This document shows, piece after piece, positions 3,706 through 6,972 of a DNA stretch of 39,724 bases (positions are counted from its first letter, which is position 1; each line of letters opens with the position of its first letter). Position numbers and translations under genes: made by a program. Under the pieces are notes generated by a model. That model made no database searches. It saw only the letters and a list, made by a program, of their open reading frames with translations, and was not told the DNA's origin. Origin of the DNA: Shigella phage ESh7. The DNA lies in sequence record ON528720; one strand, 5' to 3'.

Positions 3706-4176
3706 ATGAACCTGCGGGAGAAACTGGAGGCTTACTCTAAGGTGTCTCCCTCTGGTTGCTGGGAGTGGCGGCGAGCCACTGCTGGGAATGGTTATTGTTT
3801 AATATCCATAGGTCGCCAGCGTCAAGCATATGCGCACAGGGTATCATACTTCGTCTTCAATGAGCCAATTTCCGAAGGTCTTGTCATTAGACATAAGTGT
3901 GATAACCCTTGCTGTGTTAACCCTGAGCACCTAGAAGTTGGGACTCAGGCAGACAACATGCGGGACTGTAAGAAGCGTGGTCGTTTATCCGCGCCACCAG
4001 TAGCGAGAGGTGTACACAATCACAAGACTAAGCTGACCGATGAACAGGTAGCCTACATTGTGAACTCCACCAAGAGTAGCCGCGAGTTAGCCAACGAGTT
4101 TGGAGTATCGCCGCAGGCTATAAACTGGAGGAAGAGACAATGGCAGGCTACGTCGCAAAAGGAATCCGAAAAGTAG
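3706..4176 (+). CDS. HNH endonuclease with C-terminal helix-turn-helix region (gene 2.8 position)
   Basis: GCWEW...NGYC...HRVSY...HKCDNPCCVNPEHLEVGTQADN HNH motif; C-terminal TDEQVAYIVNSTKSSRELANEFGVSPQAINWRKRQW resembles HTH. Confidence 0.75.
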   Translation: MNLREKLEAYSKVSPSGCWEWRRATAGNGYCLISIGRQRQAYAHRVSYFVFNEPISEGLVIRHKCDNPCCVNPEHLEVGTQADNMRDCKKRGRLSAPPVARGVHNHKTKLTDEQVAYIVNSTKSSRELANEFGVSPQAINWRKRQWQATSQKESEK

Positions 4177-4589: not shown

Positions 4590-5045
4590 ATGGCTAAAGT
4601 TCAATTCAAACCGAGAGCAACCACTGAGGCAATCTTCGTGCACTGCTCTGCGACTAAACCAAGTCAGAACGTAGGCGTTCGTGAGATTCGCCAGTGGCAT
4701 AAAGAGCAAGGTTGGCTCGATTGCGGATATCACTTCATCATCAAGCGTGATGGCACTGTGGAAGCAGGTCGTGATGAACTGGCTGTAGGTTCCCACGCTA
4801 AGGGCTACAATCACAACTCTATTGGTGTCTGCCTTGTAGGGGGTATCGACGATAAAGGTAAGTTTGACGCTAACTTTACTCCAGCCCAAATGCAATCTCT
4901 TCGCTCACTGCTGGTCACACTTCTGGCTAAGTACGAAGGGTCTGTCCTACGTGCTCATCACGATGTTGCACCTAAAGCCTGCCCATCCTTCGACTTGAAG
5001 CGCTGGTGGGAGAAGAGCGAACTGGTTACATCTGACCGAGGGTGA
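4590..5045 (+). CDS. 3.5: N-acetylmuramoyl-L-alanine amidase (T7 lysozyme, RNAP inhibitor)
   Basis: 151 aa, MAKVQFKPRATTEAIFVHCSATKPSQN... matches T7 gp3.5 pattern. Confidence 0.9.
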   Translation: MAKVQFKPRATTEAIFVHCSATKPSQNVGVREIRQWHKEQGWLDCGYHFIIKRDGTVEAGRDELAVGSHAKGYNHNSIGVCLVGGIDDKGKFDANFTPAQMQSLRSLLVTLLAKYEGSVLRAHHDVAPKACPSFDLKRWWEKSELVTSDRG

Positions 5046-5049
5046 TACC

Positions 5050-5157
5050 ATGAGGATGATTTGCATTCGTTGTGACAAGCCTTTGAAGAGTCGCGTACCA
5101 TCACGTCAGTGTCAGTGCAAAGACCCAATCAAGGCTGAGGAACACACCGAGAAGTAA
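5050..5157 (+). CDS. Cys-rich mini-protein (35 aa), hypothetical
   Basis: MRMICIRCDKPLKSRVPSRQCQCKDPIKAEEHTEK; CxxC...CxC; start overlaps 3.5 stop; no strong RBS. Confidence 0.3.
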   Translation: MRMICIRCDKPLKSRVPSRQCQCKDPIKAEEHTEK

Positions 5158-5177
5158 TTAACACTCACTAAAGGGAT
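5155..5177 (+). promoter_or_regulatory. T3 RNA polymerase promoter (variant AACACTCACTAAAGGGA)
   Basis: TAATTAACACTCACTAAAGGGAT; one mismatch in the conserved CCCTCACTA core. Confidence 0.55.
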
Positions 5178-5179
5178 GA

Positions 5180-6972
<1,793 letters not shown>

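What the first reader, a model, noticed from the sequence alone, without database searches (positions are those of the whole stretch)
5050..5157. Cys-rich 35-aa ORF between lysozyme and primase-helicase: possible remnant of a larger gene
MRMICIRCDKPLKSRVPSRQCQCKDPIKAEEHTEK has a CxxC...CxC arrangement. It overlaps the stop of gene 3.5 and ends in the next promoter. T7 has a larger gene (3.8) in this interval (recollection), so this could be a truncated relic, or a small zinc-ribbon protein in its own right.
Basis: inference. Interest (0 to 1): 0.2.

Follow-up and report, generated by a model that had tools for sequence, protein, structure and literature searches.

The report
Phage T3 gene 3.7 mini-protein
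This 35-codon reading frame is the long-annotated gene 3.7 of T3-type phages, a real and conserved gene for a tiny four-cysteine (probably zinc-binding) protein of unknown function, and not a leftover of the larger T7 gene 3.8.

Summary
The ORF at 5050-5157 (+) is real and encodes a protein 100% identical to the annotated gene 3.7 protein of phage T3. All 101 T3-group (Teetrevirus) records that match in the phage collection carry it full length. It belongs to PHROG 17413 (function unknown).

It is under protein-level purifying selection. Across 22 loci the variable sites fall 5/3/17 on codon positions 1/2/3. dN/dS is 0.067, against 0.065 for the neighbouring amidase. Both other frames contain stops in every sequence.

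An exhaustive search of 1.84 billion representative proteins found only two clusters, of 35 and 36 aa, and no longer relative. The 36-aa relative is 55% identical. It keeps the spacing C-x2-C-x12-C-x-C and lies in the same slot in a sister lineage.

The relic idea fails. T7 gene 3.8 (HNH) lies downstream of the phi3.8 promoter, whereas 3.7 lies upstream. The two proteins share no similarity, and one phage carries both 3.7 and an HNH gene after the promoter.

One detail in the finding is wrong: the ORF starts 4 nt after the gene 3.5 stop, so only its Shine-Dalgarno sequence lies inside 3.5. Its TAA stop does overlap the promoter.

Zinc binding and the function are inferred, not shown. This is an already known gene of low interest.

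The parts
4590..5045 (+). Gene 3.5 (N-acetylmuramoyl-L-alanine amidase / lysozyme), the upstream neighbour; stop TGA at 5043-5045
   Evidence: ORF list. 99% identical to the T3 amidase and colinear with the T3 annotation.
5038..5046 (+). Shine-Dalgarno region of gene 3.7 (GAGGGTGAT), lying in the last codons and stop of gene 3.5; 3-7 nt upstream of the ATG
   Evidence: Read from the sequence. The same site is listed as the RBS 'GAGGGTGATaccATG' for the orthologue in Citrobacter phage SH1 (PMC4925675) and annotated as an RBS in phage KLB12. The GAGGG core is invariant in 22 loci.
5050..5157 (+). Gene 3.7: 35-aa Cys4 mini-protein (C5, C8, C21, C23), basic N-terminal two-thirds, acidic tail
   Evidence: 100% identical to T3 NP_523314 'gene 3.7 protein'. 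phrog_17413, E = 8.7e-29. Full length in 101/101 matching phage records. Codon-position bias 5/3/17 and dN/dS 0.067. A 36-aa homologue with the same Cys spacing in a sister lineage.
5156..5178 (+). Phage RNA polymerase promoter phi3.8 (T3 type; +1 at G5173); its first two bases are the last two bases of the 3.7 stop codon
   Evidence: Pattern match, one of 14 in the window versus 0 expected. Annotated as phi3.8 at the homologous T3, phiYeO3-12 and phiSG-JL2 positions.
5169..5197 (+). R3.8 hairpin (12-bp stem, 5-nt loop), the presumed RNase III processing site that would end mRNAs carrying 3.7 as their last cistron
   Evidence: RNA fold. Annotated as RNase III recognition site R3.8 at the homologous T3 position. 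The role as a 3' end of upstream mRNAs is inferred from established T7/T3 biology.
5225..6925 (+). Gene 4A (DNA primase/helicase), the downstream neighbour
   Evidence: ORF list. 99% identical to T3 gp4A over its N-terminal part. T3 annotation.

Best explanation
The ORF is gene 3.7 of the T3 group of T7-like phages (genus Teetrevirus). It is a genuine protein-coding gene for a 35-residue protein of about 4 kDa. Shown: the ORF, its identity to T3 gp3.7, its presence in every T3-group genome found, purifying selection on the amino-acid sequence, four invariant cysteines with fixed spacing, and the absence of any longer relative. Inferred: it is transcribed with the class II genes 2.5-3-3.5 from upstream phage promoters. 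It is translated from a strong Shine-Dalgarno sequence embedded in the end of gene 3.5, so it is probably coupled to 3.5 translation. It would be the last cistron on mRNAs that RNase III ends at R3.8. The four cysteines (CxxC-x12-CxC) most likely bind one Zn2+ ion, folding the basic N-terminal 28 residues into a minimal zinc-knuckle or zinc-ribbon module and leaving an acidic tail. A peptide this small cannot be an enzyme. Like other tiny T7-group proteins, it most likely acts by binding a host or phage macromolecule (protein or nucleic acid) as a lineage-specific accessory factor during the DNA-metabolism phase of infection. The target is unknown.
For: Identity: tblastn gives 100% identity to T3 'gene 3.7 protein', and 101 records have full-length matches at 91% aa identity or more. 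T3 annotation. phrog_17413. Coding selection in 22 T3-group loci: variable sites 5/3/17 at codon positions 1/2/3 (chi-square p = 0.001), pN 0.022 versus pS 0.27, dN/dS 0.067, against amidase 0.065 and primase N-terminus 0.19; frames +1 and +2 carry stops in all sequences. 25 of 35 residues are invariant, including C5, C8, C21 and C23. Distant homologue P0002 (36 aa, 55% identical, E = 4e-5 against 1.84 billion proteins) keeps all four Cys, the same spacing and the PIKAE motif. It lies between an amidase (89% identical) and a primase (82%), with its TAA fused to a phage promoter. This holds although the ORF DNA is only 56% identical and synonymous sites are saturated. Four Cys in 35 aa has P = 3.5e-4 at this genome's Cys frequency. 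The AlphaFold2 single-sequence model has pLDDT 72 and places a beta-hairpin around the first CxxC.
Against: There is no direct evidence of translation, zinc binding or any phenotype, and I found no paper on its function. No Pfam, NCBIfam, PADLOC or PDB sequence match. The structure search gave nothing significant (best E = 5.6), so the zinc-ribbon fold is not demonstrated. A CxC second knuckle is atypical for zinc ribbons. The pairwise dN/dS sums are not phylogenetically independent, and within-group divergence is low (92-97% nt identity). T7 and most other Studiervirinae lack the gene, so it is probably dispensable for basic growth.
Confidence: 0.8

Rival explanations
1. Truncated relic of a larger gene, either the HNH homing endonuclease gene 3.8 that T7 has in this interval or some other lost gene, now decaying.
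For: T7 and several other lineages do carry a 121-165-aa HNH gene between 3.5 and 4. HNH proteins often have Cys-rich zinc sites. The 3.5-4 interval is a hot spot for gene gain and loss.
Against: The HNH genes lie downstream of the phi3.8 promoter and 3.7 lies upstream. No BLASTP alignment to T7 gp3.8, to the window's own HNH protein or to the primase zinc-binding domain. No Pfam hit. NL_ZS_3 has 3.7 and an HNH gene together. No homologue longer than 36 aa in 1.84 billion representatives. dN/dS 0.067, with an intact ORF in 101/101 records.
Confidence: 0.03
2. The ORF is incidental. The 108 bp are conserved as non-coding DNA or RNA, for example an upstream element of promoter phi3.8 or part of the RNase III substrate or mRNA 3' region.
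For: The stretch is highly conserved at the DNA level in the T3 group (92-97%). It abuts the promoter and the R3.8 hairpin. About half of the genome annotations do not call the ORF.
Against: Substitutions concentrate at third codon positions (17 of 25) and are mostly synonymous. In the sister lineage the DNA is only 56% identical, yet the ORF, its length and its Cys residues persist. No Rfam family matches (only a chance hit at E = 0.37). T7 and many relatives run the same promoter directly after 3.5 without this stretch.
Confidence: 0.04
3. The ORF is translated, but only the act of translation matters. Examples are ribosome traffic stabilising the 3' end of the 2.5-3.5 mRNA, or modulating RNase III cleavage at R3.8. 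The peptide itself has no function.
For: The ORF is tightly packed: the SD lies inside 3.5, the stop is fused to the promoter, and the hairpin starts 12 nt after the stop. Other lineages have unrelated mini-ORFs that start 2-4 nt after the amidase stop in the same slot.
Against: Translation in cis would not constrain the amino-acid sequence. Yet dN/dS is 0.067, 25 of 35 residues are invariant, and the four Cys and the PIKAE motif survive at 55% identity.
Confidence: 0.05

Closest known systems
Gene 3.7 protein of phage T3 (NP_523314; also 3.7 of Yersinia phage phiYeO3-12 and gp3.7 of Salmonella phage phiSG-JL2); PHROG phrog_17413
   Same: Identical sequence to T3 (35/35), and 97% identical to phiYeO3-12 and phiSG-JL2. 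Same position 4 nt after gene 3.5, and the same stop/promoter overlap.
   Different: Nothing of substance; this is the same gene in another T3-group phage. Its function is also unknown in those phages.
T7 gene 3.8 (HNH homing endonuclease, PF13392)
   Same: It occupies the same inter-gene interval, between gene 3.5 and gene 4.
   Different: 121 aa versus 35 aa. It lies downstream, not upstream, of promoter phi3.8 and R3.8. It has an HNH_3 domain that is absent from gp3.7, and there is no sequence similarity.
Small stand-alone Cys4 zinc-finger or zinc-ribbon proteins of phages and bacteria, such as Mu Com, P2 Ogr and ribosomal protein L36 (recalled from my own knowledge; analogy only)
   Same: Very small and basic, with four metal-ligand residues in two knuckles. 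L36 shares the C-x2-C-x12-C spacing.
   Different: No detectable sequence similarity: no BLASTP alignment to E. coli L36, no Pfam hit and no significant structural match. The second knuckle is CxC rather than CxxC or C-x4-H. Membership is not claimed.
Lineage-specific mini-ORFs in the 3.5-4 interval of other Studiervirinae (28-40-aa hydrophobic proteins in Klebsiella-phage-like loci)
   Same: Same genomic slot. Some start 2-4 nt after the amidase stop, and they are of similar size.
   Different: They are hydrophobic and membrane-like rather than Cys-rich and charged, with no sequence similarity. The name 'gp3.7' in other genera (for example the 70-aa Dev2 gp3.7 in PMC4925675) is positional, not a sign of homology.

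Membership tests
T3 gene 3.7 / phrog_17413 | Sequence match to family members over the full length | tested here: met
   35/35 identity to T3 NP_523314. phrog_17413 E = 8.7e-29, covering profile positions 1-35 of 35.
T3 gene 3.7 / phrog_17413 | Position between the gene 3.5 stop and promoter phi3.8, upstream of R3.8 and gene 4A | tested here: met
   Colinear with the T3, phiYeO3-12 and phiSG-JL2 annotations. Alignment.
T3 gene 3.7 / phrog_17413 | Behaves as a protein-coding gene (purifying selection in frame) | tested here: met
   dN/dS 0.067, variable sites 5/3/17, stops in the other frames.
HNH homing endonuclease (T7 gp3.8 type, PF13392) | HNH_3 domain or sequence similarity to gp3.8 | tested here: not met
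   Pfam: 0 families for gp3.7, while gp3.8 hits HNH_3 at 3e-15. BLASTP finds no alignment with E <= 100.
HNH homing endonuclease (T7 gp3.8 type, PF13392) | Location downstream of promoter phi3.8 | tested here: not met
   3.7 lies upstream of the promoter. T7 3.8 and the NL_ZS_3 HNH gene lie downstream.
Cys4 zinc-ribbon / zinc-knuckle proteins | Four conserved metal-ligand residues arranged as two knuckles | tested here: met
   C5, C8, C21 and C23 are invariant in 11 protein variants and in the 55%-identical homologue P0002 with the same spacing.
Cys4 zinc-ribbon / zinc-knuckle proteins | Fold resembling solved zinc-ribbon structures | tested here: inconclusive
   AF2 single-sequence model, pLDDT 72, with a beta-hairpin at the first CxxC. 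Foldseek against the PDB gives a best E of 5.6, and the weak hits include zinc modules but none is significant.
Cys4 zinc-ribbon / zinc-knuckle proteins | Stoichiometric Zn2+ binding | not testable with these tools
   Needs metal analysis of the purified or synthetic peptide.
Ribosomal protein L36 (bL36) | Sequence or profile similarity to the L36 family | tested here: not met
   Only the C-x2-C-x12-C spacing is shared.

The most novel reading that the evidence does not exclude
gp3.7 is a zinc-stabilised microprotein with a specific target during T3-group infection. It might be an inhibitor or modulator of a host factor or defence protein, or a partner of the neighbouring replication and lysis-control proteins (gp3.5 lysozyme/RNA polymerase, gp4 primase). 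It would be older than the T3 genus, because a sister lineage with T7-type promoters keeps it. At 35 residues it would be among the smallest functional phage effectors known.
Probability: 0.3. Interest if true: 0.45.

Novelty: already known. Interest (0 to 1): 0.15.

Why it matters
The main value is for annotation. About half of the deposited T3-group genomes do not call this ORF, yet the evolutionary evidence says it is a real gene. Its function has been unknown since it was first annotated in T3. Small phage proteins of this size have repeatedly turned out to be specific inhibitors of host machinery, so gp3.7 is a cheap candidate for a targeted experiment. The result also corrects the idea that it is a remnant of T7 gene 3.8. 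It further shows that the 3.5-4 junction is a slot where different T7-like lineages keep different mini-genes.

Tried and rejected
I padded it with five in-frame upstream codons, which found only the family's own cluster.
- My first gap survey used an out-of-frame gp4 query. I redid it correctly.
- Relic of T7 gene 3.8: rejected.
- Similarity to the primase zinc-binding domain or to the window's own HNH protein: none.
- Resemblance to ribosomal protein L36, recalled from memory on the basis of Cys spacing: no sequence support.
- Pfam, NCBIfam, PADLOC and PDB sequence searches: empty.
- Foldseek against the PDB with the AF2 model: nothing significant.
- Rfam scan: only a chance snoU13 hit on the minus strand (E = 0.37, 16.7 bits against a gathering score of 46).
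- Sigma-70 promoter and terminator scan: two weak promoter-like matches and no terminator. I did not pursue this.
- A degenerate-pattern scan of viral and metagenome contigs found only further T3-type copies.
- Literature searches for gene 3.7 / gp3.7 found only a genome table (PMC4925675). The phiYeO3-12 genome paper was not held.

Full report
**Observation**

The window has an ATG-to-TAA ORF at 5050-5157 on the + strand. It encodes MRMICIRCDKPLKSRVPSRQCQCKDPIKAEEHTEK.

It lies between the amidase/lysozyme gene 3.5 (4590-5045) and the primase-helicase gene 4A (ATG at 5225).

Two details of the finding needed checking:
- The ORF does not overlap the stop of gene 3.5. The TGA is at 5043-5045 and the ATG at 5050. 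What overlaps the end of 3.5 is the Shine-Dalgarno sequence GAGGG(TGAT) at 5038-5046.
- The ORF does end in the next promoter. TAA (5155-5157) shares two bases with AATTAACACTCACTAAAGGGATG (5156-5178). This is one of 14 T3-type promoter matches in the window, where none is expected by chance. A 12-bp hairpin follows at 5169-5197.

An ORF of this length is not significant by itself. Four Cys in 35 residues is unusual for this genome (P = 3.5e-4). Even so, 4 of 167 short six-frame ORFs show at least 4 Cys with a CxxC, so comparative evidence has to decide.

**What it is**

The protein is 100% identical to the annotated gene 3.7 protein of phage T3. Full-length matches at 91% aa identity or more occur in 101 phage records. 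All are T3-group (Teetrevirus) phages of Klebsiella, Escherichia, Yersinia, Salmonella, Serratia, Citrobacter, Enterobacter, Pantoea and other hosts.

In T3 the order is 3.5, then 3.7, then promoter phi3.8, then RNase III site R3.8, then 4A, with the same 4-nt gap and the same stop/promoter overlap. phiYeO3-12 and phiSG-JL2 are annotated the same way.

The protein matches PHROG phrog_17413, function unknown. It matches nothing in Pfam, NCBIfam, PADLOC or the PDB sequences.

The window itself is a T3-group phage. Its closest record over 4 kb is Pantoea phage vB_PdeP_F5M1C, at 96.8%.

**Is it really coding?**

I aligned 22 T3-group loci: the window, T3, six IMG/VR contigs and 14 GenBank phages.

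| Region (in frame) | Variable sites, codon pos. 1/2/3 | pN | pS | dN/dS |
|---|---|---|---|---|
| ORF 3.7 | 5/3/17 (chi-square p = 0.001) | 0.022 | 0.27 | 0.067 |
| Amidase (3.5) | 16/10/86 | 0.015 | 0.21 | 0.065 |
| Primase N-terminus (4A) | 19/17/51 | 0.046 | 0.21 | 0.19 |

In both alternative frames every sequence has stops, and the apparent dN/dS exceeds 1. 25 of the 35 residues are invariant, including all four Cys. The few replacements are mostly conservative or fall in the C-terminal tail.

Caveat: the pairwise sums are not phylogenetically independent, and divergence within the group is low (92-97% nt identity).

**A distant homologue**

An exhaustive phmmer search of 1.84 billion representative proteins returned only two clusters:
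- the family itself, 35 aa;
- P0002, 36 aa, MAKMICLKCGLALKSKVVTKQCSCKEPIKAEVTTKD, E = 4e-5, 55% identical.

P0002 keeps C-x2-C-x12-C-x-C exactly, and it keeps the motifs MIC.KC, LKS.V and QC.CK.PIKAE.

Its contig (L097) has the same arrangement. An amidase (89% identical) is followed by the mini-ORF, whose TAA is fused to a phage promoter, and then by a primase (82% identical). There the promoter reads TAATACGACTCACTAACAGGGAG, which is T7-like rather than T3-like.

The ORF DNA is only 56% identical to the window and synonymous sites are saturated, yet the ORF, its size and its Cys residues are retained. The nearest cultured relatives of L097 are T3-group phages at about 76% nt identity. The gene is therefore older than the T3 genus.

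**The relic hypothesis**

In T7, promoter phi3.8 follows the 3.5 stop after 18 nt, and the 121-aa HNH gene 3.8 lies downstream of that promoter. The T3-type 3.7 lies upstream of the homologous promoter and hairpin. The two genes therefore sit on opposite sides of a conserved landmark.

Other evidence against a relic:
- gp3.7 gives no BLASTP alignment to T7 gp3.8, to the window's own HNH protein or to the gp4 zinc-binding domain.
- Klebsiella phage NL_ZS_3 has an intact 3.7 and also an HNH gene inserted after the promoter.
- No homologue longer than 36 aa exists in the representative library.
- Selection on the ORF is as strong as on the amidase.

**Context across relatives**

I anchored on the amidase in 80 IMG/VR loci. 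The 3.5-4 interval varies widely:
- 31-83 nt with no convincing ORF (at most a 20-codon TTG frame lying over the promoter/hairpin spacer);
- HNH genes downstream of the promoter;
- one to four hydrophobic mini-ORFs of 28-40 aa. Some of these start 2-4 nt after the amidase stop, in the same slot as 3.7.

Among these loci, 3.7 occurs only in the T3-type ones. The slot holds lineage-specific mini-genes, which is consistent with an accessory role.

**Mechanism: shown and inferred**

Shown:
- the gene is conserved and under selection;
- the four Cys have fixed spacing;
- it has a strong SD embedded in 3.5;
- its stop is fused to phi3.8.

Inferred from established T7/T3 biology:
- it is transcribed with the class II genes;
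- its translation is coupled to that of 3.5;
- it is the last cistron of mRNAs ended by RNase III at R3.8.

Inferred from the sequence:
- one Zn2+ ion is bound by the four Cys, giving a minimal zinc-knuckle or zinc-ribbon module with a basic face and an acidic tail;
- at 35 residues it most likely works by binding a host or phage macromolecule.

The AF2 single-sequence model (pLDDT 72) places a beta-hairpin around the first CxxC. Foldseek against the PDB found nothing significant, so the fold remains unproven. I found no published functional data.

**Verdict**

This is an already known, annotated gene (T3 gene 3.7) of unknown function. It is confirmed here as genuinely coding and is not a relic of gene 3.8. 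The interest is low. The open question is what a conserved 35-residue Cys4 peptide does during infection.

Noticed in passing
window 3706-4176 (+): A 156-aa HNH endonuclease ORF (Pfam HNH_3, E = 9e-11) lies between gene 2.5 and gene 3. It is 41% identical to T7 gp2.8. T3 itself lacks it, but several T3-group phages have it. It is a mobile homing-endonuclease insertion.
   Followed up: partly
L091 854-1195 (Klebsiella phage NL_ZS_3): A Cys-rich HNH ORF of about 113 aa is inserted immediately after the phi3.8 promoter core, with gene 3.7 intact upstream. This shows that 3.7 and an HNH gene can coexist in the interval.
   Followed up: partly
L097 410-432 (Logan contig SRR28585575_14284): A sister lineage, about 76% nt identical to T3-group phages, carries the 36-aa 3.7 homologue. 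Its promoter here reads TAATACGACTCACTAACAGGGAG, which is T7-type rather than T3-type. This suggests a different RNA polymerase specificity in a T3-like backbone.
   Followed up: no
L028-L082, roughly 1958-2340 in each locus: In loci from other Studiervirinae lineages the 3.5-4 gap holds one to four conserved hydrophobic mini-ORFs of 28-40 aa, for example MNNLKDFDIIPLLAYGVLGLWGVTFLIAFFMSCVDGTAL. Some start 2-4 nt after the amidase stop. They look like small membrane proteins of unknown function.
   Followed up: no
L092 and L096, the region homologous to window 5179-5197: Klebsiella phages mtp15 and KLB12 have a different sequence in the R3.8 hairpin region, and in mtp15 the leader of gene 4 also diverges.
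   Followed up: no
window 5259-5414 (+): A 51-aa ORF lies in another frame inside the 5' part of gene 4A. It appears to correspond to the 51-aa ORF21.1 that the SH1 genome table places just inside gene 4A and matches to a T3 hypothetical protein; I did not compare the sequences. I did not test it for coding selection.
   Followed up: no
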